Assembly (NCBI GenBank): GCA_903827955.1
Contig: CAIKKJ010000075.1
Coordinates: 5,147 to 69,146, forward strand
Direction of reading: 5' to 3'
DNA: 64,000 nt
DNA from: an uncultured Verrucomicrobia subdivision 3 bacterium
Lineage (GTDB): Bacteria; Verrucomicrobiota; Verrucomicrobiia; Limisphaerales; UBA11358
In this document: piece by piece, positions 4-44,966 of the stretch
Position numbering within the stretch: the first letter of the stretch is position 1
Layout of the letters: every line of letters begins with the position of its first letter
Made by a program: the position numbers and the translations under genes
The notes under the pieces: generated by a model
The model's input: the letters and a program-made list of their open reading frames with translations, nothing else
Told to the model about the DNA's origin: nothing
The model's database searches: none

Positions 4-3000
4 TTGAGCGGACGCGTGACGGATGTGAACGGTTCACCGCTCGGCGGCGTGCTCGTGGGCAACGGACAAATTGACGCGGCAAAATTCATCGGCGGCTGGA
101 CGGACAGTGACGGCCGTTACACCATCGTCAACGTCAGCGTCACGAACAGCTTCGACTTGCTGCCGCACCAGTTCGGCTACACCTATTCTAACGCGAACTG
201 GGCGAATCCAATTTTCCCGACGAACAACACGGATGGTTTGGATTTCGTCGCGACGCCGCTGCCATTAGTGAATGTTTTTGCCGATACCAATGCCGTCGTC
301 GAAAGCGACGGCGCGGCGCACACGTTCACCGTCACGCGCACCGGCAGCGTGAGCAATGACCTGACCGTGAACCTAGTTTTGAGCGGCACGGCCACGCTGA
401 GATCAGATTATTCGCTGACGCCGACGATTGTCGCCACGAACGGCGTGACGATTCCCGCCGGGACGAACAGCGTTACGTTCACTTTTCACGTTATCAACGA
501 CTCGCTCGTCGAAGGGCCGGAAACCATTTCGCTGACGCTGCTCGACGACGACCAGAACACGAGCAATCCCAACTACGCCATCGCGCCGCTCGGCGATGCG
601 ACCGTGACCATCATTGACGACGATTCACTCGTGACGCCGACCGTGATGCTCACAACCACCACGCCGCAGATTTCCGAAAACGGCATGGATCCCGGCCAGC
701 TCATCTTCACACGCCTCGGCAGCACGGCGGGAGATTTGGCCGTGAATTATTCCGTCAGCGGCACGGCGACGGCGGGCGCGGATTATGTCACGCTGCCGGG
801 CGTGGCGGTGATTCCGACGGGGCAAAGCAGCGTGACGATTCCGCTGGTGCCGATTGATGACAAAAATTTTGAGACCAATGAAACGGTCACTGCCACCCTC
901 GCCACAAATGTCACTTACATCATCGGTTCACCGTCCGCTGCGACCATCACGATTCTCGATGATGATTTCATGACCGTGTCAGTTTATGCCACGGGCGATG
1001 CCGCCGAACCGGCGACCGTCGGAAAATTCACCGTGAAGCGGGACGGTGATTTGACCGAGGCGCTCGTAGTAAATTACAACGTCAGCGGCACAGCCAGCAA
1101 CGGCGTGGATTATTCCGCATTGAGCGGCATTGTGACAATTCCCGCCGGCGCGGCCTCGGCGGATATTTCCGTTGCGCCCATTGACGATTCGCTGTTGGAA
1201 GGCGACGAGACGGTGATGCTTTCGCTAACCAACACGGTGAACTACGATGTCGGCACACCGGGCAGCGCCACGGTTTTCATCCGCGACAGCGAGCGGCCGA
1301 CCATCACCATCAGCTCAACCAATACGCCGATCTCCGAACAAGGTGCGACGACGGGGCAATTCATCATCACGCGCAACAGTTCCGTTGGCGACCTCACCGT
1401 GTTCCTAAACATCAGCGGCACGGCCACAGCCGGCAGTGATTATGTGCCGCTCGACAATCAGGTCCTCATCCCCGACGGCGCGACTTCCGCGACGCTCGAT
1501 GTGATTCCGTTTCACGATTTGATTTTGGAGCCGATGGAAACCGTCATCGTGACGTTGCCGACAAACGCCAATTATTTCGTGTCCTCCTCGGCGAGCGCCA
1601 CGGTGGAAATTCTGGACGACGGCACAAGCACGATTCCCGGCATCGGTTTTTGTTTTGCGACTTCCGCATTTTTGGAAGGCGAATCGCCGGGCATAGCGGT
1701 GACGTTGAGCCAGACTTCCAGCGTGCCGGTGCAGGTCGGCTACCGCGTCATCGGCGGCACGGCCTCAAGCAACCGCTATTCGCTGCCGCAGGGAATTTTG
1801 ATCATTCCGTCAAACACCTGGGTCGCGTTCGTGCCGCTGAAAATCACCAACGACTCCCTCGTCGAACCGCCGCAGACCATCCGCGTCACGCTCTTCAACC
1901 CGGCGAACGCCACGCTCGACGGCATTAAAATCCACACCTACACCATCCTCGATGACGACGTATGTTCCGTGAGCGTCACCGCCACGCAGACGAACGCGGC
2001 GGAAACCGGTTTAGTCGCGGGCAACTTCCGCATCACGCGCGTCGGCTCGACCAATTCCGCGCAGCCCGTGAATTTCCAAATCACCGGCAGTGCCAGCGCG
2101 CCGACAGATTATTCGCCGCTCGGAAATTCTACGGTGATCCCGGCGGGCGCGACGTTTGTGGATCTGCCGGTCACGCCGACGGATGACAACATGATGGAAT
2201 TTCCGCAGACCGTGGTGCTGACTTTGACCAGTGCCACCAATGCAAATATCATTTCGCCCAACGTCGCCACCGTAACCATTGCAGACAACGACACGAATAA
2301 TCTGCCCGTCGTCACCGTCACTTCCACCGACCATCCCAATGCGCTCGAAGGCGGCGCGAACGGCGAGTTTTTATTCACCCGCACCGGCCCGGTGACAAAC
2401 GCGCTGACCATTTTATTTTCTGTCAGCGGCACAGCCGGCAACGGCGTGGACTACGCAGCCATCACGAACGGCGTGACGATTCCTGCCGGCCAGTCGAACG
2501 CCATTGTGAGCGTCGCCGCCGTGGACGACACTTTGGTCGAGGGCGACGAGACGGTCATCATTTCGTTGACCGAGGGTGCGGATTATCGGACTGCGTATCC
2601 GGCGTTCGCAACGGTGACGATCCAAGACAACGACCAGCGCGTGTGGATTGATGCGAGCGATTTCATCGCGTCTAAATACGCGCCGAATCTTCCCGACCCC
2701 GGCCAGTTCACGTTCTCGCGCTTCGGCACGACGAACACGCCGGTCACCATTTTCTACGCCATCAGTGGCACGGCGAGCAACGGCCTCGACTACGCCAGCA
2801 TCACCAACTTCATCGTCATCCCCGCCGGCCAACTCACCACGACGCTACCCATTTTACCGCAGCACAGCGGCATCGTCGTCGGGCCGGTGACGGTGACGCT
2901 CACGTTGCTGACGAACACCGCCTTCGTCCTCGGCGCGAAGACGAATGGCACGGTGACCATCAACGACGACATGCCGGCAGTTTCGATTTCCGCCGTGGTG

Positions 3001-5307
3001 ACAAATGTTTTGGAAGGCAGCGGCTCGAACGGCGTCTTCCGCGTCACGCGCAGCGGCGACCCAAAATATGATTTCACCGCGCTGCTCGGCGTCGGCGGTC
3101 AGGCGACGTTCGGCGTGGATTATCCGCCGTTCGCGACGAATGTTTATTTTTCCTGCGGCGTGACCTCCGTGGATTTGTTCATCACGCCGACAAACGAAGT
3201 TGTGGTGGAAGGCGATGAATCGGTGCTCGCGTTCCTGCTGCCGAGTTCAGCGTATTCCATCCTTTCGCCGAGCAACGCCGTGCTAACCATCGCCGACGCG
3301 GGCACAAATCAAACGCCACAGGTCATCATCACCAGCCCAAAAACTTACGTCGCCTTCGCCAACGGCACGAACGCCGGCTTGGTGCTGAATGCGACGATCA
3401 TTGACGACAGCACCAACGACGTGCTGAAGTGGACGAAGGTGAGCGGGCCGGACAGCTACGTTTTCGGCGACCCCACGACGAACAACACCACGGTGACCTT
3501 CACCAACTCCGGCGTTTATTTGTTGCGGCTCACCGCGGACGACGGCCAGTTGCAAGGCCACGCAGACATTCTGGTTTTCGTCAGCACGGATGTTTTGAGC
3601 GTGACGAACATTTTGCATTGGACGCTCGATGACGGCAGTGGCACGAACGTCCTCGACTCATCAACGAACGGGCGCAACGGCACGCTGGTCGGCCAGCCAG
3701 CATGGATAACGAATGGCGCCATCGCCGGCGCCTTGAATTTTCACGGCACGAATGATTGCGTGCGCCAGACCGCCGGCTCCAACACGTTGAACGGTTTGTC
3801 CGCCTTCACCGTCGCGCTGTGGATCAAACCGGCGACGAACGCGAGCCAGGGATTTTTGACGGCGGATGACGTCAGCACCAATTCTACCTTCAGTTTTTCC
3901 ACACACACTTTTGCGTCTTGCGGAAATTCCACAAACGTCATCGAGACGACCGTTTCCACCACGCAGGGCGTGTTTCACCGCAGCAGCGCCAGCGGCGCGC
4001 TCAAGCCCGGCGCGTGGTCGCACGTCACGCTGACGTGGACGAACGGCGAGGCACTGAAACTTTACATCAACGGCCAACTCGACCAACCGAACGTCGGCTT
4101 CATTGCGGGCAGCGGCGCGTTGACGAATTGCCCACAGTTCATCATCGGCAAGGGCGCGTGGGACAGCCCGGCCTCGTGGAGCGGCGGCGTTGATGATGTG
4201 CGCGTATTTGACCAGGCATTGAGCGCGTCGGAAATTCTCGCCCTCGCCGCCGGGCCGGTGACGAATCACGCGCCAGTCGTGGACGCCGGGCCGGACGTGA
4301 GCGTGCAGATGGGAATTCCCGTCACGCTCATCGGCACGGTCAGTGACGATGGCTTGCCGAATCCGCCTGCGTCCATCACCAACTGGTGGACGTATCTCGG
4401 CACGAATAATATCACGATCACCAATCCCGCGAGCCTCACGAACACCTTCGTTTTCGACACGCCGGGCGATTACGTTTTCCGCCTCACCGCATTCGACGGC
4501 GAGCTGACGAGCTTTGATGACGTGACCATCACCGTGCTGGAGCCGATTTACGTCAGCGTCAATGCCTCCATCAGCGATGCGAACGAACTTGGCCCCGTGC
4601 CCGGCGAATTCACCCTCACGCGCACCGGCGACACCAACAGCCCGCTCACCGTTTATCTCGGCCTCTCCGGCACGGCGAGCAACGCGGTGGATTATGTTGC
4701 GGTGACCAACGCCGTCACGTTCGCCGCGCTAACGAATACAGTTGTCCTGACGCTCACACCCATCCTCGACGACCGCATCGAAGGCGATGAATCAGTGATG
4801 GTCACCGTGCAGACGAACCTCGCCTATGTCATCACCGGCAGCCCGGCAACCGTGACGATTCATGATTCACCCTACGGTTTGTGGAGCATCCAGAATTTCA
4901 CGATCGAGCAGTTGACCTTTCCGAACATCAGCGGCGCGGCGGCGGATTTTGAGCACGACGGCGTGAACAATTTTTCCGAATACGCCTTCAACCACGACCC
5001 GAAAGCCGCCGACGGCAACCCGCCGTATCAATGGGGTTTTGAAACCAGCACGAATGACAACAAGCCGCATCTCACCCTGACGTGGACGCGCCGGCTGCCG
5101 CCGCGCGATGTAGAATATGGCGTGTATGTCTCGACAAACTTGTTGGACTGGAACACAGGGACAAATTATGTGCAGGAATTTTTGCACACGAACGACCCGA
5201 ACGGCATCACCGAAACCGTGAAGACCCGCGCGCTGGCGCCATTTCCGAATTCCATAAAACTGTTCATGAACATCCGCGTATGGTTACAGCAAGTTCCCGC
5301 GCCTTGA
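4..5307 (+). CDS. Large secreted/surface protein with tandem Calx-beta repeats, PKD/Ig-like and LamG domains (5' end probably outside the window)
   Basis: Repeated 'V.Y..SGTA..G.DY...G...IPAG......V.P.DD...EG.ETV' Calx-beta units; LamG-type 'LYING...G.VDDVRVFDQALS'; 'NHAPVVDAGPD' PKD-like unit; frame runs from the window edge. Confidence 0.85.
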   Translation: MSGRVTDVNGSPLGGVLVGNGQIDAAKFIGGWTDSDGRYTIVNVSVTNSFDLLPHQFGYTYSNANWANPIFPTNNTDGLDFVATPLPLVNVFADTNAVVESDGAAHTFTVTRTGSVSNDLTVNLVLSGTATLRSDYSLTPTIVATNGVTIPAGTNSVTFTFHVINDSLVEGPETISLTLLDDDQNTSNPNYAIAPLGDATVTIIDDDSLVTPTVMLTTTTPQISENGMDPGQLIFTRLGSTAGDLAVNYSVSGTATAGADYVTLPGVAVIPTGQSSVTIPLVPIDDKNFETNETVTATLATNVTYIIGSPSAATITILDDDFMTVSVYATGDAAEPATVGKFTVKRDGDLTEALVVNYNVSGTASNGVDYSALSGIVTIPAGAASADISVAPIDDSLLEGDETVMLSLTNTVNYDVGTPGSATVFIRDSERPTITISSTNTPISEQGATTGQFIITRNSSVGDLTVFLNISGTATAGSDYVPLDNQVLIPDGATSATLDVIPFHDLILEPMETVIVTLPTNANYFVSSSASATVEILDDGTSTIPGIGFCFATSAFLEGESPGIAVTLSQTSSVPVQVGYRVIGGTASSNRYSLPQGILIIPSNTWVAFVPLKITNDSLVEPPQTIRVTLFNPANATLDGIKIHTYTILDDDVCSVSVTATQTNAAETGLVAGNFRITRVGSTNSAQPVNFQITGSASAPTDYSPLGNSTVIPAGATFVDLPVTPTDDNMMEFPQTVVLTLTSATNANIISPNVATVTIADNDTNNLPVVTVTSTDHPNALEGGANGEFLFTRTGPVTNALTILFSVSGTAGNGVDYAAITNGVTIPAGQSNAIVSVAAVDDTLVEGDETVIISLTEGADYRTAYPAFATVTIQDNDQRVWIDASDFIASKYAPNLPDPGQFTFSRFGTTNTPVTIFYAISGTASNGLDYASITNFIVIPAGQLTTTLPILPQHSGIVVGPVTVTLTLLTNTAFVLGAKTNGTVTINDDMPAVSISAVVTNVLEGSGSNGVFRVTRSGDPKYDFTALLGVGGQATFGVDYPPFATNVYFSCGVTSVDLFITPTNEVVVEGDESVLAFLLPSSAYSILSPSNAVLTIADAGTNQTPQVIITSPKTYVAFANGTNAGLVLNATIIDDSTNDVLKWTKVSGPDSYVFGDPTTNNTTVTFTNSGVYLLRLTADDGQLQGHADILVFVSTDVLSVTNILHWTLDDGSGTNVLDSSTNGRNGTLVGQPAWITNGAIAGALNFHGTNDCVRQTAGSNTLNGLSAFTVALWIKPATNASQGFLTADDVSTNSTFSFSTHTFASCGNSTNVIETTVSTTQGVFHRSSASGALKPGAWSHVTLTWTNGEALKLYINGQLDQPNVGFIAGSGALTNCPQFIIGKGAWDSPASWSGGVDDVRVFDQALSASEILALAAGPVTNHAPVVDAGPDVSVQMGIPVTLIGTVSDDGLPNPPASITNWWTYLGTNNITITNPASLTNTFVFDTPGDYVFRLTAFDGELTSFDDVTITVLEPIYVSVNASISDANELGPVPGEFTLTRTGDTNSPLTVYLGLSGTASNAVDYVAVTNAVTFAALTNTVVLTLTPILDDRIEGDESVMVTVQTNLAYVITGSPATVTIHDSPYGLWSIQNFTIEQLTFPNISGAAADFEHDGVNNFSEYAFNHDPKAADGNPPYQWGFETSTNDNKPHLTLTWTRRLPPRDVEYGVYVSTNLLDWNTGTNYVQEFLHTNDPNGITETVKTRALAPFPNSIKLFMNIRVWLQQVPAP

Positions 5308-19271: not shown

Positions 19272-20177
19272 ATGAAAACGGAAAACCCAGTCATCGAAAT
19301 CCAAAACCTCGTGCGGCGCTACGGCAAACACGATGCCGTGGACGGCCTCTCGCTCACCGTGCAGCCCGGCAGATGCTATGGCTTCTTCGGCCGCAACGGC
19401 GCGGGTAAAACCACGACCATCAAGTGCCTGCTTAATTTGCTGCGGCCGGATTCCGGCAGCGTGCGCGTGTTTGGTCTCGACCCGCGCAAGGATGAAGTCG
19501 CCATCAAATCGCGCATCGCCTATGTGCCGGACGTGGTGGCGTTTTATCCGTGGATGACCGTGGCCGACACGCTGGAATACTACGCCTCCTTCCGCACCAA
19601 CTGGAATCGCGACATCGAGGCCGATTTGCTCAAACGCTTTCAGCTCGATGCCGCCAAGAAAACCACGAGTCTCTCGAAAGGCCAGCGCACACAGCTCGCG
19701 CTCATCGGCGCGATTTGTCCCGAACCGGAACTGCTCGTGCTCGATGAGCCGACGAGCGGCCTCGACCCGATTGTCCGCCGCGAATTCATCGAAACCGTCA
19801 TCGGCGCGTATCAATCCGGCGACCCCGGCAAGCGCACGGTGTTTGTTTCCACGCATTTGATTTCCGAGTTCGAGGGTTTGATTGACGAATTCACCATCGT
19901 TGAAAACGGCAAAAATCTTTTGACGATGGAAGCCGACGCCGCGCGGGATCGTTTCAAAAAAATTCGGGCCCGCTTGCCGCAAGAAACCAAACTGAACCTG
20001 TCTGCCGCATTGAGCGTGAAGCAAAGCGGACGCGACGTAGAAATTCTCGCTAACGGCAACAGCGAACAGTTGCTCGCGGAATTGAAGGCGCACAAGCCGG
20101 AGGAATTAAAAATCGAGGCGCTGACGCTGGAAGAAATCTTCGTGGCGTCGGATGTTTTGAAAAAGGCAACCACATGA
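19272..20177 (+). CDS. ABC exporter ATP-binding subunit
   Basis: GRNGAGKTT, LSKGQ, LDEPTSGLDP, STH. Confidence 0.93.
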   Translation: MKTENPVIEIQNLVRRYGKHDAVDGLSLTVQPGRCYGFFGRNGAGKTTTIKCLLNLLRPDSGSVRVFGLDPRKDEVAIKSRIAYVPDVVAFYPWMTVADTLEYYASFRTNWNRDIEADLLKRFQLDAAKKTTSLSKGQRTQLALIGAICPEPELLVLDEPTSGLDPIVRREFIETVIGAYQSGDPGKRTVFVSTHLISEFEGLIDEFTIVENGKNLLTMEADAARDRFKKIRARLPQETKLNLSAALSVKQSGRDVEILANGNSEQLLAELKAHKPEELKIEALTLEEIFVASDVLKKATT

Positions 20178-22990
20178 CCCCGCTCGTCAAAAAAGAAATC
20201 CGCCTGCTGCTGCCGAGCTTTCTCCTCGGTTGCCTGCTGGCATTTTCCAACTGGCTGCTGCCCATCATAGCGCGAGATTTCGACGGAATATTTTACCTGT
20301 TCCCATTCGTATTCTGCCCGGCGATGGTGGCCATGATGGCACTCAATCCGTTTGGCGGCGAGGTGAGCGCGGGCACGCTGGCCAACCTGTTGGCGCAACC
20401 CATTTCGCGGCTGCGGCTGTGGCAGACGAAAATTGTGCTGTTGGCGCTCGCGCTGTTGATTATCGGCCTGCTCTGGTGTGGATCTTTTATTTTACAATTA
20501 CATTTTTACGGTAACCACGGTGATTTCAAAAATCCGCTGGATGCGCTTATTACCGCCGTCCTCTTCGGCCTCGTGGTTTTTTCCGGCGGACTGTGGACGG
20601 TGCTGCTGCTGCGGCAGGTGGCAGCGGCGTTTTGGTTCACGCTACTCGTGCCGGGCGTGTTGCTGGTGATTGTCTTCGCCATCTTCGGCGGCGAATCGGA
20701 CGAACTCATCACCGCCGTGAGCGTGACGGTGCTGGGGCTTTACAGCCTCGCGGGATTTTTCTTTGCGCGCTGGCTGTTTTTCCGCGCGCAGGATTTGCAA
20801 TGGTCGGGCGGCAGCATCGTCATGCCGGAAATGCGCGGGCTAAAGTGGTGGGGCGAGCGTCCTCGCGAGCCGCACGTCGTGGGTGCCAGCGGCTCGTCAG
20901 TAGCCTCGCCCCACCGAAGACATCCGCGCGCGGCACTGTGGCGCAAGGAATTCATGCTGCACCAGTCGCAATACGTCATGGCCTTCGTGCTGCTCGTGCT
21001 GCACCTCGGCGTGCTGGGCGTGCGACGTTTTTACGACTTGAGCCATTCGCGCGACTTGAAATTCACGCTCGAAATTTTCTGGGGTCTGTGGTTTGTGATG
21101 CCGCTGCTCGTCGGTTGCGCGGCGGTGGCGGAGGAACGCAAAATCGGCACGCTCGAAGGCCAGCTCTGCCTGCCGGTAAAACGGCGCTCGCAGTTCGCCA
21201 TCAAATTTATCGTGATGCTCTTTCTGTCCGTGCTGCTCGGCGTGGTGATGCCGTTGCTACTGGAAGGTAAACGGATTTTGCCGGGCGGCGGCCTTGATTT
21301 CTCAACGGCCACCGGGGTCATGGGACAAATTGCCTCCACAAATTATCCATTCTCCACCATAGAAACGATTTTGTTGAACACGGTGGTCATGGTGTGTCTT
21401 TATTTACCGGTGCTTTTTTTGGTCGGCATTGCTTTGCTGATTGGCGGCATGGCGTTTTACGCGTCGTCGCTGGCCCGCAACACGCTGCAATCGCTTGCGC
21501 CGGCAGTGCTGGGAATTTTGGTCATGTGTTTTCTGCTGGCGGCGGCGGGTATTCCGGCGGTTCCCACAGTTGATTTTATGTGGCGCGGGCCGCTGGCGTA
21601 TTTCATCGGCGTGCCGCTGGTGCTGCTCACGCTGGTGGGCTTGGCGTTTTGGAATTTTCAGCAGGTCAAAGCCAGCGCACAAATGGGCTGGCGCAACCTG
21701 CTGGCGTTCGTGCTGGCCGTGGGGCTGGGCGTGGTGACGACGGCGGCGGTGTATCATCGCGCGTGGGAAAAACTCACGCCGTTCGAGCCGGCGCACGGCG
21801 CGGCGCGGTTGGCGCTGGCGGATTCTGTCCGGTTGGAAAACCCTTGGAACGACTTGAGCGTCCGTTTGCCGGAGGGAAAAATCTGGAAAGCCTGGTCCAA
21901 ATACAACCGACCTGACCCGCTTGATGTGTTGCTGGGAAATTTCAAAGTCGCGAAGCAGGAAGGCGCATATCTCGGCGGCTCGAATTGGACAGCCGTGGTT
22001 GATTGTCTTTGGTATCAACAGGCGGGCATCAAGTCGGACGGGACGCTGTGGGTTTCGCCAAAGCCAAAACGTCCCAGCGCCTCCGAAAGATTCCGGTCCG
22101 TCTTGCCAAAACGAGAAGCACTCGCGCAATTTGGCAGCGAGACCAACTGGAGCAGTCTGGGCTCGCGAGGAATTTTTGCGTTGCTCGTTAAAAATGACGG
22201 AACCTTGTGGCGCTGGGGCGTGACGAATTTTGACTCGAAGCACGAAACCTGGCCCGGCCTGCAAGCCTTCACGCCCCAGCGGCTCGGAACGGAATCAAAC
22301 TGGGCGGAGGTTTCCGAACATAACTACCGGTTTCAACTTCGCGAGACCGACGGCAGCGTCTGGACTTGGAATGACTACGGCAGCACAAACAATCTGACCC
22401 GGCTTGAAATTGAACCGGGGTTCACCGTCGAATCCATGACTAGCTTCAAAAATTTTCGCAGCAAGGCATACATAAATCCTGGATTGCAATACCGCGTCGG
22501 CGTGCGCGACGACGGCACCTTCCGCATCTGGTCTGGTGATCGTGTGGTTATCAATAAAACTTCACGCTACAATTCTTACGAGCAGTTTCCGATGGATTTG
22601 CAAATCGGCAGCGAAACCAACTGGCTCGCCGTCGCTGGCGGCGGCGAAAAAATCATCACGCTCAAAAACGACGGAACGCTCTGGCTGTGGAATTTTCAGC
22701 GGAGTCAATTCAGCGGTGGAGCACAAAACGAATTTGAATCGGAAATCCAAAAGACCGTCCCCGTCCGCCTCGGCAAGCATGCGGACTGGATAGCCATTTC
22801 CGGCGGTTGGGAGGCCACCACTCTCGCCGCCGACGGCAGCCTCTGGTATTGGCCGCTGCAAACCGGCAACCGCTATGACGGTGCCTACAGCACATACGAC
22901 GACCGGAATGATTTCAGCCACATCCGCCCGCTGCTGGAAAGCTCGCGCAAGCCGCAGTTGCTGGGAAATGTGTTTGCCGGCGGACAGTGA
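20174..22990 (+). CDS. Duplicated ABC-2-type permease fused to a C-terminal RCC1/BLIP-II-like beta-propeller
   Basis: Two 'L.KE' / 'E...GTL..L...P..R....K' permease halves; repeated 'K.DGTLW' and 'G.E.NW' blades. Confidence 0.75.
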   Translation: MTPLVKKEIRLLLPSFLLGCLLAFSNWLLPIIARDFDGIFYLFPFVFCPAMVAMMALNPFGGEVSAGTLANLLAQPISRLRLWQTKIVLLALALLIIGLLWCGSFILQLHFYGNHGDFKNPLDALITAVLFGLVVFSGGLWTVLLLRQVAAAFWFTLLVPGVLLVIVFAIFGGESDELITAVSVTVLGLYSLAGFFFARWLFFRAQDLQWSGGSIVMPEMRGLKWWGERPREPHVVGASGSSVASPHRRHPRAALWRKEFMLHQSQYVMAFVLLVLHLGVLGVRRFYDLSHSRDLKFTLEIFWGLWFVMPLLVGCAAVAEERKIGTLEGQLCLPVKRRSQFAIKFIVMLFLSVLLGVVMPLLLEGKRILPGGGLDFSTATGVMGQIASTNYPFSTIETILLNTVVMVCLYLPVLFLVGIALLIGGMAFYASSLARNTLQSLAPAVLGILVMCFLLAAAGIPAVPTVDFMWRGPLAYFIGVPLVLLTLVGLAFWNFQQVKASAQMGWRNLLAFVLAVGLGVVTTAAVYHRAWEKLTPFEPAHGAARLALADSVRLENPWNDLSVRLPEGKIWKAWSKYNRPDPLDVLLGNFKVAKQEGAYLGGSNWTAVVDCLWYQQAGIKSDGTLWVSPKPKRPSASERFRSVLPKREALAQFGSETNWSSLGSRGIFALLVKNDGTLWRWGVTNFDSKHETWPGLQAFTPQRLGTESNWAEVSEHNYRFQLRETDGSVWTWNDYGSTNNLTRLEIEPGFTVESMTSFKNFRSKAYINPGLQYRVGVRDDGTFRIWSGDRVVINKTSRYNSYEQFPMDLQIGSETNWLAVAGGGEKIITLKNDGTLWLWNFQRSQFSGGAQNEFESEIQKTVPVRLGKHADWIAISGGWEATTLAADGSLWYWPLQTGNRYDGAYSTYDDRNDFSHIRPLLESSRKPQLLGNVFAGGQ
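20847..20915. repeat. REP-like palindromic element, copy 1 (69 bp, in frame in the ABC permease)
   Basis: GGTGGGGCGAGCGTCCTCGCGAGCCG - 17 nt - CGGCTCGTCAGTAGCCTCGCCCCACC; both arms identical to 42527-42588. Confidence 0.92.
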
Positions 22991-41832: not shown

Positions 41833-41933
41833 GGTAAAGTAAGGATGCTTTCATTTCCGATTTGTTCCAGACAATTTCACCCCCAAATTCCGCGATTGAG
41901 TCAGGGGATTTCTTGCGTATCATTCAGCGCTCT

Positions 41934-44900
41934 ATGTCCAGCAGCCGCAGACAATATCCGTTTCACCTGATCGAACCCAAGTGGCAGCAAACTTGGGAGC
42001 AGCAGCAGGCTTTCCGCGCGTTTAATCCGAACGAGGAAATTCCCGCGAACCATCCTTTCGCCGTGCGCCATAAGCTTTCCGGCAAAGTTTCCGCCACGCA
42101 ACTGCCTGAAAAATTTTACATCCTCGACATGTTTCCGTATCCGAGCGGCGCGGGCTTACACGTCGGGCATCCCGAAGGCTATACAGCCACGGACATTCTC
42201 GCGCGCTACCGTCGCGCGTGCGGATTCAACGTGCTGCATCCGATGGGCTGGGATTCGTTCGGTTTGCCTGCCGAGCAATACGCCGTCAAGACCGGCCAGC
42301 ATCCGCGCGTGACGACCGAGGCGAACATCGCCAACTTCACGCGCCAGATCAAGAGTCTCGGCTTCAGCTACGACTGGTCGCGCGAACTCGCCACGACGGA
42401 TGTGGAATATTTCAAGTGGACGCAGTGGATTTTCCTAAAGCTTTACAATTCGTGGTTCAATCCCGAAACGAACAGGGCTGAACCGATTGAAACGCTGAAA
42501 TTTCCGGCAGAATTGGAATCAACGTCGGTGGGGCGAGCGTCCTCGCGAGCCGACGCGTGGGACGGCTCGTCAGTAGCCTCGCCCCACCAAGACCTCGAAT
42601 CGCGCCGCCGCGCTTATCGCGATTCCAAACGCCTCGCCTATGTCAGCGAAGCGCCGGTGAACTGGTGTCCTGAACTCGGCACGGTGCTGGCCAATGAGGA
42701 AGTCATAGACGGCAAGAGCGAAGTCGGCGGCTTTCCAGTCATCCGCAAGCCGATGCGCCAATGGATGCTCCGCATCACCGCCTACGCCGAGAAATTGCTG
42801 GCCGACCTCGACACGATTGACTGGAGCGATTCGCTCAAGGAAATGCAGCGGAACTGGATTGGGGGCAGCGAAGGCGCGGAAGTAGAATTTCGAGCTGGTG
42901 GAAAATATGTTCGGCGCAGCGATAATGCCGAATCAGAATTTCAAATAGGCCCAAAAATTCCAGTGTTCACAACACGTCCAGACACGTTGTGCGGCGCAAC
43001 CTATTTGGTCATGTCGCCAGAAAATAAATTGTTGGATGAAATTGTCGAAGACAAATGGCCGTTTTGGGCATACGCAGAATTGAAAGGAACGTCATTATTT
43101 GGCAAAGAGCCGGCAACGCCAAAGGAAGCTCTGGAATTGTATCGCAAATATGCGGCTTCAAAGAGCGATTTGGAACGAACTGATCTCAATCGAGAAAAAA
43201 CAGGCGTGTATATTGGCGAATCAGCGGTTGAACCCATTCGCGAAAACATAATCCCCATCTTTGTCGCAGATTATGTTTTAGCAAACTACGGGACGGGCGC
43301 AATAATGGCTGTTCCAGCCCACGACGAGCGTGATTGGGAATTTGCGAAAAAATACCGACTGTCAATTCGCGCGGTCGTCATGCCACCGGACGAATGGCTC
43401 ATGAACGCGGTCGGTTCACCGCCGGCGGAATGGTTCACTAACGCATTCAAACTTTTGAACTTGTCAATGGATTCAATGGATTTGCTGACGGCAGCACGGA
43501 AGTTATACGAGCGAGACTGCGGTCTTTTCCCTTATCCGTTTGTTGGAACTGGCACTGCAATTAATTCCAGTGGGACTGATGATCTCCAAGTTAATGGCTT
43601 ATCCACCGCCGAAGCCAAAGCGAAAATCACCGCTTGGCTCGAAGAAAAAAAACTCGGCAAGCGCACCATCAACTACAAATTGCGCGACTGGCTGTTCAGC
43701 CGCCAGCGTTACTGGGGCGAACCGTTCCCGATTGTTTGGAAAAAGGACGCCGCCGGGAATTTGCACCACGAAGCATTGCCGGAAAGTTCGTTGCCACTGT
43801 TGCCGCCGTCGCTCGAAGATTACAAGCCCACTGCCGACGGCCAGCCACCGCTCGCCCGCGCGAAGGATTGGTTGAATCTGCCCGACGGTTCCGTGCGCGA
43901 AACGAACACCATGCCGCAGTGGGCCGGCTCGTGCTGGTATTATTTGCGTTACACCGATGCGAAGAACGTGCAGTCGTTCGTCGGCAAGGATGCGGACAAT
44001 TATTGGATGGCCTCGAATGGCAAGGCGGCGGGCGTGGACCTTTACGTCGGCGGCACGGAACACGCCGTGTTGCATCTGCTTTACGCGCGGTTCTGGCACA
44101 AAGTTTTGTTCGACCTCGGCCACGTTTCGACGCCCGAACCGTTTTACAAACTCGTCAATCAAGGTCTTATCCTCGGCGAGGATATGCAGAAGATGTCCAA
44201 GGCTCGTGGTAATGTGGTGAATCCTGACGCTGTCGTCGAAGAATACGGCGCGGATGCGCTCCGGCTTTACGAGATGTTCATGGGGCCGTTGCAGGACACC
44301 AAGCCATGGAACACCAAGGGCGTCGAAGGCGTCTATCGTTTCCTCGGCCGCGCGTGGCGTTTGTTCGTGGACGAGAAAGCGGAAACGGCTTTTGAACAGG
44401 CTGAGACTACGACTGAACCGTCCAAGCACGCAGAGTTGCTTGATTTAATTTTACTCGATGGCGGCATTACCGACACGGACGCCACGCCCGCGCAACTCAA
44501 GACACTCCACGCCTGCATCAAAAAAGTCACTGAGGATTTGGACGGCATGCGCTTCAACACAGCGATTTCCGCGATGATGGTGTTCATCAACGAGGCGATG
44601 ACGTGGCAGACGAAGCCGTTGTCGGTGATGAAAACTTTTCTGCAACTGCTCGCGCCGTTCGCGCCGCACATCGCGGAAGAATTGTGGGCGCGGCTGCATT
44701 CCACGTTCGGCCAAACCGCGCCGTCACTGGCTTATGCGGTGTGGCCGAAGTTTGATGCGGCTTTGCTCGTCGAAAGCGAGATCGAACTGCCGGTGCAAGT
44801 GAATGGCAAGTTCCGTGACACGATCAAGGTGGCGGTGGACGCCGATAACACAGCCATCGAGGCGGCGGCGAAAGCTTCGGAAAAAGTCCAAACGTTTATC

Positions 44901-44966
44901 GCAGGCAAGGCCATCAAGAAAGTCATCATCGTGCCGAAGCGGATGGTGAATTTAATTGTCGGCTAA
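41934..44966 (+). CDS. leuS: Leucine-tRNA ligase with several insertions
   Basis: MFPYPSGAGLHVGH, TTRPDT, GTGAIMAVPAHD.RD, DWLFSRQRYWGEP, KMSKA, PVQVNGK. Confidence 0.97.
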   Translation: MSSSRRQYPFHLIEPKWQQTWEQQQAFRAFNPNEEIPANHPFAVRHKLSGKVSATQLPEKFYILDMFPYPSGAGLHVGHPEGYTATDILARYRRACGFNVLHPMGWDSFGLPAEQYAVKTGQHPRVTTEANIANFTRQIKSLGFSYDWSRELATTDVEYFKWTQWIFLKLYNSWFNPETNRAEPIETLKFPAELESTSVGRASSRADAWDGSSVASPHQDLESRRRAYRDSKRLAYVSEAPVNWCPELGTVLANEEVIDGKSEVGGFPVIRKPMRQWMLRITAYAEKLLADLDTIDWSDSLKEMQRNWIGGSEGAEVEFRAGGKYVRRSDNAESEFQIGPKIPVFTTRPDTLCGATYLVMSPENKLLDEIVEDKWPFWAYAELKGTSLFGKEPATPKEALELYRKYAASKSDLERTDLNREKTGVYIGESAVEPIRENIIPIFVADYVLANYGTGAIMAVPAHDERDWEFAKKYRLSIRAVVMPPDEWLMNAVGSPPAEWFTNAFKLLNLSMDSMDLLTAARKLYERDCGLFPYPFVGTGTAINSSGTDDLQVNGLSTAEAKAKITAWLEEKKLGKRTINYKLRDWLFSRQRYWGEPFPIVWKKDAAGNLHHEALPESSLPLLPPSLEDYKPTADGQPPLARAKDWLNLPDGSVRETNTMPQWAGSCWYYLRYTDAKNVQSFVGKDADNYWMASNGKAAGVDLYVGGTEHAVLHLLYARFWHKVLFDLGHVSTPEPFYKLVNQGLILGEDMQKMSKARGNVVNPDAVVEEYGADALRLYEMFMGPLQDTKPWNTKGVEGVYRFLGRAWRLFVDEKAETAFEQAETTTEPSKHAELLDLILLDGGITDTDATPAQLKTLHACIKKVTEDLDGMRFNTAISAMMVFINEAMTWQTKPLSVMKTFLQLLAPFAPHIAEELWARLHSTFGQTAPSLAYAVWPKFDAALLVESEIELPVQVNGKFRDTIKVAVDADNTAIEAAAKASEKVQTFIAGKAIKKVIIVPKRMVNLIVG
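42527..42588. repeat. REP-like palindromic element, copy 2 (62 bp, inside leuS)
   Basis: Same two 26-bp arms as 20847-20915 with a 10-nt spacer (acgcgtggga). Confidence 0.92.

What the first reader, a model, noticed from the sequence alone, without database searches (positions are those of the whole stretch)
20847..20915. REP-like palindromic element inserted in frame in two unrelated genes
Seen: arms GGTGGGGCGAGCGTCCTCGCGAGCCG and CGGCTCGTCAGTAGCCTCGCCCCACC (26 bp each) are identical here and at 42527-42588 in leuS, while the spacers differ (17 versus 10 nt). Both copies in the window lie inside intact ORFs. The right arm reads GSSVASPH in both; the left arm is read in different frames (WGERPREP versus VGRASSRA), so conservation is at the nucleic-acid level. 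The fold is an 11-bp outer stem, a fixed internal loop and a 7-bp inner stem. Established: REP/REPIN elements are normally extragenic and spread by RAYT (HUH) transposases; Rickettsia palindromic elements are the known coding precedent. Inference: a recently active non-autonomous element family that adds peptides to proteins.
Basis: partly seen in the sequence, partly recalled or inferred. Interest (0 to 1): 0.75.

Follow-up and report, generated by a model that had tools for sequence, protein, structure and literature searches.

The report
Transposase-linked palindromic element inside genes
A short hairpin-forming mobile DNA element, whose matching transposase gene lies elsewhere in the same genome, sits in frame inside leuS, a transporter gene and seven other genes; this is unusual for such elements but already described in related bacteria.

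Summary
Both 26-nt arms are exact at 20847-20915 and 42527-42588, against 0 expected by chance. The two copies belong to a family of 15 arm-spacer-arm elements in this 3.86-Mb genome. Every spacer differs (10-29 nt). Nine of the 15 lie in frame inside Pfam-supported genes: LeuRS, an ABC-2 membrane protein, MutS, MutY, OGG, PriA, PurL, a ketoacyl synthase and a squalene/phytoene synthase. All three reading frames of the arm are used.

On another contig the same arms, 535 nt apart, enclose a 161-aa HUH/Y1 transposase that matches the REP-associated tyrosine transposase family and E. coli TnpA-REP. Its orthologues in other species carry the same arms (21 of 23 public loci).

Contigs from other metagenome runs hold the element, and close relatives hold an allele without it.

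This is therefore a non-autonomous partner of a RAYT/TIRYT-type transposase, translated as a 20-27-aa loop. The kind is known: Di Nocera et al. 2013 described intragenic GTAG-type REP dimers, most numerous in the verrucomicrobium Opitutus terrae and frequent in repair and tRNA-synthetase genes.

Possibly new: different element families occupy the same mutS and leuS sites across the genus, and arms stay 96-98% identical while flanking third codon positions are 54-58% identical.

The parts
20847..20872 (+). Left arm (variant A), read as WGERPREP in the ABC-2 gene
   Evidence: Exact match. The same 26-mer, with up to 2 mismatches, forms the left arm of most of the 15 genome copies.
20873..20889 (+). 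17-nt spacer (hairpin loop), unique to this copy
   Evidence: all 15 spacers in the genome differ.
20890..20915 (+). Right arm (reverse complement of variant B), read as GSSVASPH
   Evidence: Exact match. Variant B differs from A only in the central 8 nt.
20174..22990 (+). Host gene 1: ABC-2-type membrane protein with a C-terminal RCC1-like domain. The insert falls at about aa 224-247 of the 938-aa ORF from the first ATG (aa 264-287 of the stop-to-stop frame 20054-22987).
   Evidence: ORF. Pfam ABC2_membrane_2 lies upstream of the insert and WD40_RLD downstream. Of 23 orthologues, 21 lack the insert.
42527..42552 (+). Left arm (variant A), read as VGRASSRA in leuS
42553..42562 (+). 10-nt spacer
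42563..42588 (+). Right arm (reverse complement of variant B), read as GSSVASPH
41862..44966 (+). Host gene 2: leuS. The insert sits in a 59-residue lineage-specific loop that solved bacterial LeuRS structures lack.
   Evidence: ORF. Pfam tRNA-synt_1g, editing domain and anticodon-binding domain. Query residues 105-163 have no counterpart between residues 149 and 150 of PDB 3ziu.

Best explanation
The two segments are copies of a miniature, non-autonomous inverted-repeat element. It consists of two 26-nt arms that begin with GGTGGGG, are separated by a variable spacer, and together form one long hairpin. The element belongs to a REP-associated (RAYT/TIRYT-type) HUH tyrosine transposase system in a Verrucomicrobiota genome.

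Shown: the transposase gene lies between the same two arms on another contig. The arm-transposase pairing is conserved across species. More than half of the copies lie in frame inside conserved genes.

Inferred: the Y1 transposase recognises and cuts the arms on single-stranded DNA, as E. coli TnpA-REP and the IS200/IS605 enzymes do, and in this way spreads or renews them. Selection then keeps only those coding insertions that preserve the frame and carry no stop codon. Arm A has no stop codon in any of its six frames. The element is translated as a 20-27-residue loop rich in Gly, Arg, Ala, Ser and Pro, at tolerant and usually hypervariable surface positions.

The sites that already hold an element appear to be preferred targets, because different element families occupy the same codon in different species.
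For: Family: 15 arm-spacer-arm copies in the genome plus one arm at a contig end; all spacers differ, 10-29 nt.

Coding copies: 9 of 15 have Pfam domains on both sides of, or around, the insert in one open frame: PriA, ABC-2, LeuRS, MutS, MutY, OGG, ketoacyl synthase, PurL and SQS_PSY. All nine keep the frame. The left arm is read in all three frames, and arm A has no stop in six frames.

Transposase: at G000:C211 the arms A and rc(A), 535 nt apart, enclose a 161-aa ORF. It matches NCBIfam NF047646 'REP-associated tyrosine transposase' at E 2.8e-18 and PDB 4er8 TnpA-REP at E 6.8e-8, with the HUH motif and the Tyr motif aligned.

Conserved pairing: the 5 genus genomes with an orthologue of at least 77% identity all carry family arms at the gene. 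In 3 the arrangement is the simple A upstream / rc(A) downstream. Transposases of 52-58% identity are flanked by other GTAG-type repeats. 21 of 23 public loci that encode relatives carry arm A or B within 400 nt.

Spread: the 22-nt arm core occurs in 16 of 18 other genomes of the genus drawn; the reversed control gave 0.

Relatives: of 19 full copies examined in 5 related genomes, 9 are in frame in Pfam-supported genes.

Polymorphism: contigs of runs X3, X4 and X5 hold the element, while contigs of X5 and X9 from close relatives replace 82 nt with 40 nt that encode the ancestral-type peptide.

Precedent: PMC3733652.
Against: No transposition event or enzyme activity has been observed; mobilisation by this transposase is inferred.

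The transposase scores 66 bits, below the NCBIfam cut-off of 80, and has no Pfam match even at E 10.

Every spacer is different. That is not what a unit copied as a whole (the classical REPIN) should show.

Single arms do not fold better than shuffled sequence (z -0.4, 0.0 and +1.0), so an arm is not itself a REP hairpin.

No target-site duplication is visible.

Element lengths are not multiples of three (70, 69, 62, 73, 77, 77, 80, 68, 65 nt). At the ABC-2 site the filled allele has 82 nt where the empty one has 40, so insertion was not a simple addition.

Several copies (MutS, PurL, PriA) are shared between species, so near-identical arms need not mean recent movement.

There are no RNA or protein data, so translation of the insert is inferred from frame conservation only.

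The genome is a 213-contig assembly, 95% complete.
Confidence: 0.8

Rival explanations
1. The hairpins are kept by the host for a function of their own, such as mRNA stability, translational pausing or a protein-binding DNA site. On this view their arm sequence is held by selection or by gene conversion between copies, and the transposase is only a neighbour of one copy.
For: At the orthologous mutS site the arms are 50-51 of 52 identical between three species, while flanking third codon positions are 54-58% identical. Copies persist at the same codon in PurL, PriA and PrmC across species.
Against: A purely structural function would allow compensatory changes, but the arms keep the family sequence instead. 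The same arms flank the transposase in 21 of 23 loci. Transposases of other clades carry other repeats. One copy is present or absent among close strains. In some species the arms at the same site have decayed: L057 and L053 in mutS, L083 and L085 in ABC-2.
Confidence: 0.1
2. It is an ordinary MITE of a DDE-type insertion sequence with 26-bp terminal inverted repeats.
For: The element has terminal inverted repeats with a short variable interior and is 62-81 nt long.
Against: No direct target duplication is seen at any of 16 sites. The only gene found between the arms is a Y1/HUH enzyme, not a DDE transposase. Sixteen different interiors would need sixteen independent deletion derivatives.
Confidence: 0.04
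3. The segment is cut out of the transcript or the protein, like an intron or intein, so no peptide is added.
For: The two ends are brought together by a strong hairpin.
Against: All 9 of 9 coding copies in this genome, and 9 further copies in relatives, keep the reading frame and contain no stop codon. If the segment were removed there would be no such constraint, and the chance of 9 of 9 in frame would be about (1/3)^9. The insert has no intein or intron features and is only 62-81 nt long.
Confidence: 0.03
4. It is an assembly or binning artefact.
For: The genome is a fragmented metagenome assembly, and contigs tend to break at repeats (one arm ends contig C201).
Against: A 2012-nt contig of another sample spans the whole tested kilobase with 2 differences, and shorter contigs of two more runs hold the element. 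Orthologous copies lie at the same codons in independently assembled genomes.
Confidence: 0.01

Closest known systems
Intragenic GTAG-type REP dimers (Di Nocera, De Gregorio, Rocco 2013, BMC Genomics 14:522, PMC3733652; abstract, sections 15 and 16 and passages read)
   Same: These are short palindromic repeats paired in inverted orientation with the tag outside ('HH dimers'), with variable spacers, and associated with tyrosine transposases. The inserts encode 20-30 aa in frame. They are most numerous in the verrucomicrobium Opitutus terrae and frequent in DNA replication/repair and tRNA-synthetase genes. The GTAG tag is mutated to GTGG in O. terrae family GTAG-20. Different REPs lie at about the same site in Xanthomonas recB.
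   Different: In this family a single arm is not self-complementary. The share of coding copies is high: 9 of 15 here, and 9 of 19 in the relatives sampled. The sequence family itself could not be compared with the paper's families, because those are shown only in its figures and an old .xls supplement that I could not read.
TIRtrons / TIRYT transposases and their TIR repeats (same paper, section 16)
   Same: A Y1 transposase gene is flanked by long terminal inverted repeats rather than by complete REP hairpins. Moderately abundant TIR families are organised as dimers. Some TIRs share a GGGGWSAS motif, and the arm here has GGGGCGAG (7 of 8 positions).
   Different: The motif does not fit at its fifth position. 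The paper's TIRYT groups were defined on alignments that I could not see. The enzyme here hits the NCBIfam RAYT model.
REPIN-RAYT systems (Bertels and Rainey; PMC3116915 seen as a listing, preprint 10.1101/2021.07.10.451892 read in passages)
   Same: Two inverted repeats with a short spacer form a hairpin. The cognate, mostly vertically inherited single-copy Y1 transposase is flanked by the same repeats, and the sequence family persists across species.
   Different: [quoted passage not shown] Here most copies are coding and every spacer is different.
Rickettsia palindromic elements (RPE; review PMC10969869 read in passages)
   Same: A palindromic repeat is inserted in frame in many unrelated housekeeping genes without destroying them.
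   Different: RPEs are about 100-150 bp, encode a conserved peptide, occur in another phylum and have no known transposase partner. Here three reading frames are used and a partner enzyme is present. No sequence comparison was made.
E. coli TnpA-REP with REP/BIME (PDB 4er8)
   Same: It is an HUH Y1 enzyme of about 160 aa. The HUH motif and the catalytic Tyr align with the C211 protein. BIMEs also pair two repeat variants in inverted orientation.
   Different: Similarity is distant (E 6.8e-8). E. coli REPs are self-folding 35-40-nt hairpins and are extragenic.

Membership tests
REP (GTAG superfamily, as defined in PMC3733652) | Each unit is a 20-40-nt imperfect palindrome that folds on its own | tested here: not met
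   Single arms A, B and a third variant fold no better than shuffled sequence (z -0.40, -0.02, +0.98). Only the arm-arm hairpin is significant (z -4 to -11).
REP (GTAG superfamily) | GTAG-like tetranucleotide at one end of the unit, on the outside in HH dimers | tested here: met
   All 15 copies begin GGTGG (or GGTCG, GATGG) and end CCACC. The paper reports the GTGG variant for O. terrae GTAG-20.
REP (GTAG superfamily) | Association with a Y1 transposase gene flanked by the same repeats (REPtron) | tested here: met
   C211 in this genome. Arms are present at the transposase gene in all 5 genus orthologues of at least 77% identity, in the simple A upstream / rc(A) downstream arrangement in 3 of them, and in 21 of 23 public loci.
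REP / REPIN | Extragenic location | tested here: not met
   9 of 15 copies lie in frame within Pfam-supported genes, as do 9 of 19 in relatives.
REPIN | Two inverted repeats plus spacer replicate as one unit, so spacers are alike among copies | tested here: not met
   All 15 spacers differ in length and sequence. In relatives a 50-nt form without a spacer recurs in 5 loci.
RAYT (REP-associated tyrosine transposase), for the C211 ORF | HUH motif and catalytic Tyr of the Y1 fold, and a match to the family model | tested here: inconclusive
   NCBIfam NF047646 at E 2.8e-18 but 66.2 bits, below the cut-off of 80. No Pfam match. PDB 4er8 aligns the HUH motif (pdHlHlf / peHmHci) and the Tyr motif. 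Both motifs are invariant in 7 orthologues.
TIRtron / TIR repeats | Y1 transposase flanked by long terminal inverted repeats that are not self-folding REPs, with the repeats also dispersed as dimers | tested here: met
   The GGGGWSAS motif quoted in the paper fits at 7 of 8 positions.
MITE of a DDE insertion sequence | Target-site duplication and a DDE transposase parent | tested here: not met
   No direct repeats flank any of 16 sites. The parent gene is a Y1 enzyme.
Rickettsia palindromic elements | Sequence similarity to an RPE family; length about 100-150 bp; a conserved encoded peptide | not tested
   No RPE sequence was on hand. Length (62-81 nt) and the use of three frames differ.

The most novel reading that the evidence does not exclude
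Certain loops of essential proteins (MutS, LeuRS, PurL, PriA, PrmC) act as permanent landing pads. Whichever Y1-transposase-linked repeat family is active in a lineage replaces or renews the arms of the resident element at its GT(A/G)G end, while the spacer drifts. On this reading the arms stay at the family consensus long after synonymous sites have saturated, and the same codon carries different families in different species. That would amount to site-specific cassette exchange by RAYT-type enzymes inside coding sequence, and a continuous source of new surface loops.
Probability: 0.3. Interest if true: 0.65.

Novelty: new member of a known kind. Interest (0 to 1): 0.42.

Why it matters
REP/REPIN elements are usually treated as extragenic. 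Here a transposase-linked family has more than half of its copies translated inside housekeeping genes, four of them in DNA repair or replication restart (MutS, MutY, OGG, PriA). This extends the 2013 report on Opitutus terrae to uncultured freshwater Verrucomicrobiota.

It also supplies a clean data set for asking how Y1 transposases choose targets, because filled and empty alleles coexist in nature and the same codons are occupied by different families.

For annotation, such inserts explain odd low-complexity peptides (VGRASSRA, AREDARPT, GSSVASPH) in otherwise conserved proteins. They should not be read as frameshifts or as new domains.

Tried and rejected
- **Expression.** No RNA holder was listed for the stretch, so expression could not be examined.
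- **Structure.** The AlphaFold2 model of the 241-aa MutS fragment, built with a 30-row alignment, was poor (mean pLDDT 52.5, pTM 0.27). It says nothing reliable about whether the insert is exposed.
- **Pfam on the C211 ORF.** No match even at E 10. The whole-genome PF01797 scan found four other Y1 genes, each flanked by a different repeat family.
- **Spacer as host DNA.** I considered whether the spacer is host DNA caught between two separately inserted arms. At the ABC-2 site the resemblance between the spacer and the 40-nt empty allele is limited to a few short words, which I judged to be within chance. At mutS the spacers of three species are at most faintly alike. The idea is neither supported nor excluded.
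- **Ketoacyl-synthase orthologues.** Only 4 of 40 genus genomes matched, 3 of them with stop codons in the match, so no empty site could be defined.
- **Single-arm hairpin.** Rejected.
- **Target-site duplication.** None was seen.
- **Unclear copies.** C185, C90 and C124 lie in long open frames but upstream of the Pfam-supported part (C124: fumarase domain from aa 113, element at aa 66-88), or in a frame with no family. I counted them as not shown to be coding.
- **Supplements.** The supplementary tables of PMC3733652 (an old .xls listing intragenic REPs) were not opened. They may list related families and the coding fraction in O. terrae.
Full report
**1. The observation**

The two segments are as described. 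The left arm (GGTGGGGCGAGCGTCCTCGCGAGCCG) and the right arm (CGGCTCGTCAGTAGCCTCGCCCCACC) each occur exactly twice in the window, at 20847/42527 and 20890/42563. No further match appears with up to 3 mismatches, and none appears in 100 shuffles. The spacers are 17 and 10 nt.

Both copies lie inside long ORFs. One is a 938-aa ABC-2-type membrane protein with an RCC1-like C-terminus (20174-22990). The other is a 1034-aa LeuRS (41862-44966).

The predicted hairpins are much more stable than shuffled sequence: RNA -44.5 and -41.7 kcal/mol, z -4.7 and -4.5; DNA z -4.3 and -4.1.

**2. The family in this genome**

The window is G000:C75:5147-69146 in a 3.86-Mb, 213-contig assembly with 56.6% G+C.

A search for the arms with up to 5 mismatches, together with a looser end-motif scan, gave the following:
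- 24 candidates in the loose scan, of which 15 carry both arms; the other 9 were chance hits.
- One arm at the end of contig C201.
- One pair of arms 535 nt apart on C211.

Most copies are near-perfect palindromes of arm A and its reverse complement. The two window copies, C191 and C106 pair arm A with a variant B that differs only in the central 8 nt. A third variant occurs in C73 and C210. Conservation starts exactly at GGTGG and ends at CCACC, and no direct repeat flanks any copy. Every spacer is different (10-29 nt).

**3. Most copies are coding**

For each copy I took the longest stop-to-stop frame that runs through it and scanned the 13 frames of 130 aa or more against Pfam.

Nine have domains on both sides of, or around, the insert in one frame:

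| Host protein | Contig | Insert position and flanking domains |
|---|---|---|
| PriA | C73 | between Helicase_C and PriA_C |
| ABC-2 membrane protein | C75 | after the ABC-2 membrane domain |
| LeuRS | C75 | between tRNA-synt_1g and the editing domain |
| MutS | C88 | inside domain III |
| MutY | C103 | between HhH-GPD and NUDIX_4 |
| OGG | C105 | inside HhH-GPD |
| Ketoacyl synthase | C125 | inside the N-terminal domain |
| PurL | C191 | aa 706-728 of 806 |
| Squalene/phytoene synthase | C210 | inside the domain |

Of the other six:
- C124 lies upstream of the fumarase domain.
- C185 and C90 lie in unsupported N-terminal stretches.
- C106 is in a 143-aa frame with no Pfam family; C32 and C114 have no frame of 130 aa running through them.

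The left arm is read as VGRASSRA, WGERPREP or GGASV.AS in different genes. Conservation is therefore at the DNA level. Arm A has no stop codon in any of six frames; arm B has one in two of six.

If the segment were removed from the RNA or the protein, the frame would not need to be kept. All 9 of 9 keep it.

Four of the nine hosts act in DNA repair or replication restart.

**4. The partner enzyme**

On C211 (locus L015), arm A (1 mismatch) and its reverse complement (1 mismatch) enclose an ORF of 161 aa counted from MNTPQ.

- It has no Pfam match.
- It matches NCBIfam NF047646, REP-associated tyrosine transposase, at E 2.8e-18. The score of 66 bits is below the equivalog cut-off of 80.
- It matches the solved E. 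coli TnpA-REP (4er8) at E 6.8e-8, with the HUH motif and the Tyr motif aligned. Both motifs are invariant in seven orthologues.

In the genus, 30 of 41 genomes have a relative at E <= 1e-5. Five have an orthologue of at least 77% identity. Of these:
- G044, G045 and G001 show the same arrangement, A upstream and rc(A) downstream.
- G052 has A upstream and rc(A) inside the ORF.
- G042 has several arms on both sides.

The six transposases of 52-58% identity that were fetched are flanked by other GTAG-tagged repeats.

In the public species-level collection, 21 of 23 loci that encode a relative carry arm A or B (up to 3 mismatches) within 400 nt; 2 carry none. Most of those records are titled Limisphaerales, Verrucomicrobiae or Verrucomicrobiota MAGs; two are titled Bifidobacteriaceae/Bifidobacterium and two only 'bacterium'. 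From this I infer that the window's organism belongs to Verrucomicrobiota.

Four other Y1 genes in this genome each have their own repeat family.

**5. Relatives**

The 22-nt arm core (up to 1 mismatch) is present in 16 of 18 other genomes of the genus drawn. It is also present in 3 of 12 genomes from other families of the order, one of them with 47 hits. The reversed control gave 0 everywhere.

In five related genomes I examined the 30 best hits. Nineteen were full arm pairs, and 9 of those lie in frame in Pfam-supported genes:
- PrmC at the same site in three species
- GcvT
- RibD
- a radical-SAM protein
- a beta-propeller protein
- PriA, at the same site as here
- PurL, at the same site as here

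A 50-nt form with no spacer recurs in 5 loci.

**6. The two window sites in orthologues**

*LeuRS.* 40 of 41 genus genomes matched, and 30 loci including this one were aligned. The insert lies in a stretch between ETLKYPAEL and RR.YRDSKRLAYV that differs in length and sequence in every species. Solved bacterial LeuRS lacks this stretch: query residues 105-163 have no counterpart between residues 149 and 150 of 3ziu. None of the 29 other orthologues shows this family there. The DNA of 12 was read. At least six of them carry other inverted repeats that begin GTAG (ATAG in one) and end CTAC, including the closest relative, G003.

*ABC-2.* 24 of 41 genomes matched at E <= 1e-15. Of the 23 other orthologues, 21 have 14-15 residues where this genome has 28. 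Two (G038, G001) have decayed copies of the same element at the same place.

**7. Support from reads, and polymorphism**

Logan contigs of four runs were laid on 20400-21400.

- X3, from another sample of the study that may be the source, spans the whole stretch in one 2012-nt contig with 2 differences.
- X4 holds 20736-20910 without a difference.
- X5, from another study, holds 20806-20925 with 1 difference.
- X5 and X9, from two further studies, also hold contigs of close relatives in which 20842-20923 (82 nt) is replaced by 40 nt. By my own reading in frame, these encode a peptide of the type seen in the orthologues without the insert.

The element is therefore real, and it is present or absent among close strains. 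The filled allele is 42 nt (14 codons) longer. It is not the empty allele plus 69 nt.

**8. The mutS site**

37 of 41 genomes matched, and 30 loci were aligned. At one codon of domain III, 13 of 30 orthologues carry an inverted repeat with at least 14 paired bases. In equal-length control segments on either side of the site, 0 of 30 and 0 of 30 do. At 12 or more paired bases the counts are 16 against 3 and 3.

The DNA of 14 loci was read, with these results:
- This family has near-consensus arms in this genome, G031 and G008.
- It is decayed in G032 and G046.
- Four other families, each beginning GTAG at the same codon, occupy the site in other species.
- Two of those families still have the last 15 nt of this family's right arm behind them. 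The newer element therefore replaced most of an older one while keeping the left boundary.
- Two species have a short segment with no repeat.

Between this genome, G031 and G008 the arms are 50, 50 and 51 of 52 identical. Flanking third codon positions are 54, 54 and 58% identical (n = 216-217), and the spacers are not alignable.

By my own reading:
- The PurL copy here and in G044 has 51 of 52 identical arm bases and 13 of 16 identical spacer bases.
- The PriA copy here and in G042 has equal-length spacers, 10 of 18 identical, but a different variant of the left arm.

**9. What it is**

Shown:
- It is a family of hairpin-forming inverted-repeat elements.
- A Y1/HUH transposase lies between the same arms, and the arm-enzyme pairing is conserved across species.
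- More than half of the copies are in frame in genes.
- One copy is polymorphic in nature.

Inferred:
- The enzyme acts on the arms in single-stranded DNA. This follows what I recall of the IS200/IS605 and TnpA-REP paradigm; of the relevant papers I saw only listings.
- Selection filters coding insertions for frame and for absence of stop codons.
- The insert is translated into a flexible loop.
- Resident elements attract new ones.

A single arm does not fold on its own. In the terms of the 2013 paper, the element therefore fits 'TIR repeats of a TIRtron' or a REPIN-like unit better than a pair of classical REP hairpins.

**10. Comparison with the literature**

Di Nocera et al. 2013 (PMC3733652; I read the abstract, sections 15 and 16 and further passages) report the following:
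- More than half of the inserts are dimers that encode 20-30 aa.
- Many of the hosts act in DNA synthesis and repair or are tRNA synthetases.
- A GTGG variant of the tag occurs in O. terrae.
- Dimer spacers are variable.
- Some Y1 transposases are flanked by TIRs instead of REPs.
- Different REPs lie at about the same site in Xanthomonas recB.

A Bertels and Rainey preprint states that REPINs are almost exclusively extragenic. The MITE review PMC10969869 describes RPEs as the extreme case of in-frame insertion.

My three searches found no paper on this family or on Limisphaerales, and none on renewal of arms at fixed coding sites. That covers only the library searched.

**11. Verdict**

The kind of element is already known, so this is a new member of it. 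It has a clearly identified partner enzyme and an unusually high share of coding copies. The turnover of families at fixed codons, and the arm conservation far above the synonymous-site level, are the parts worth following up.

Noticed in passing
G000:C118:3332-5554 (locus L048 94-2316, + strand): The alaS ORF (741 aa, runs off the contig end) carries a whole RAYT-like Y1 domain in frame, with an HUH motif and a Tyr motif (PF01797, E 8e-7). The domain lies between conserved AlaRS segments and is bounded by its own inverted repeats. This looks like an entire transposase unit inside an essential gene.
   Followed up: partly
Loci L154, L156-L159, L161, L163, L166 (public MAG records) and L109 (G052): In several species the transposase gene itself carries one arm of its own element in frame (peptide RLARTLAPP or RLAGTLAPP after KHxR). 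In L163 it carries an arm pair.
   Followed up: partly
Loci L120, L128, L129, L137, L140 (genus relatives): A 50-nt form of the element recurs in which arms B and rc(A), or A and rc(B), abut with no spacer. In RibD it reads VGRASSRAGSSVASPH. It may be the minimal or master form.
   Followed up: no
G000:C134:246-584, C191:33986-34330, C151:58381-58608, C152:623-880: Further Y1/RAYT-type genes lie in the same genome. The three whose flanks were read (C134, C191, C151) each have a different palindromic repeat family; C152 is a match only and its flanks were not read. The genome thus hosts several such systems.
   Followed up: partly
window 129-4703: Direct repeats spaced about 327-339 nt (families D1-D4, D8, D12, D15 of the repeat scan) suggest a large protein made of tandem domains of about 110 aa at the start of the window.
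   Followed up: no
Loci L160 and L165: Two public MAG contigs titled Bifidobacteriaceae/Bifidobacterium encode close relatives (75% and 61% identity) of this verrucomicrobial-type transposase with the same arms. This probably reflects mis-binning or mislabelling.
   Followed up: no
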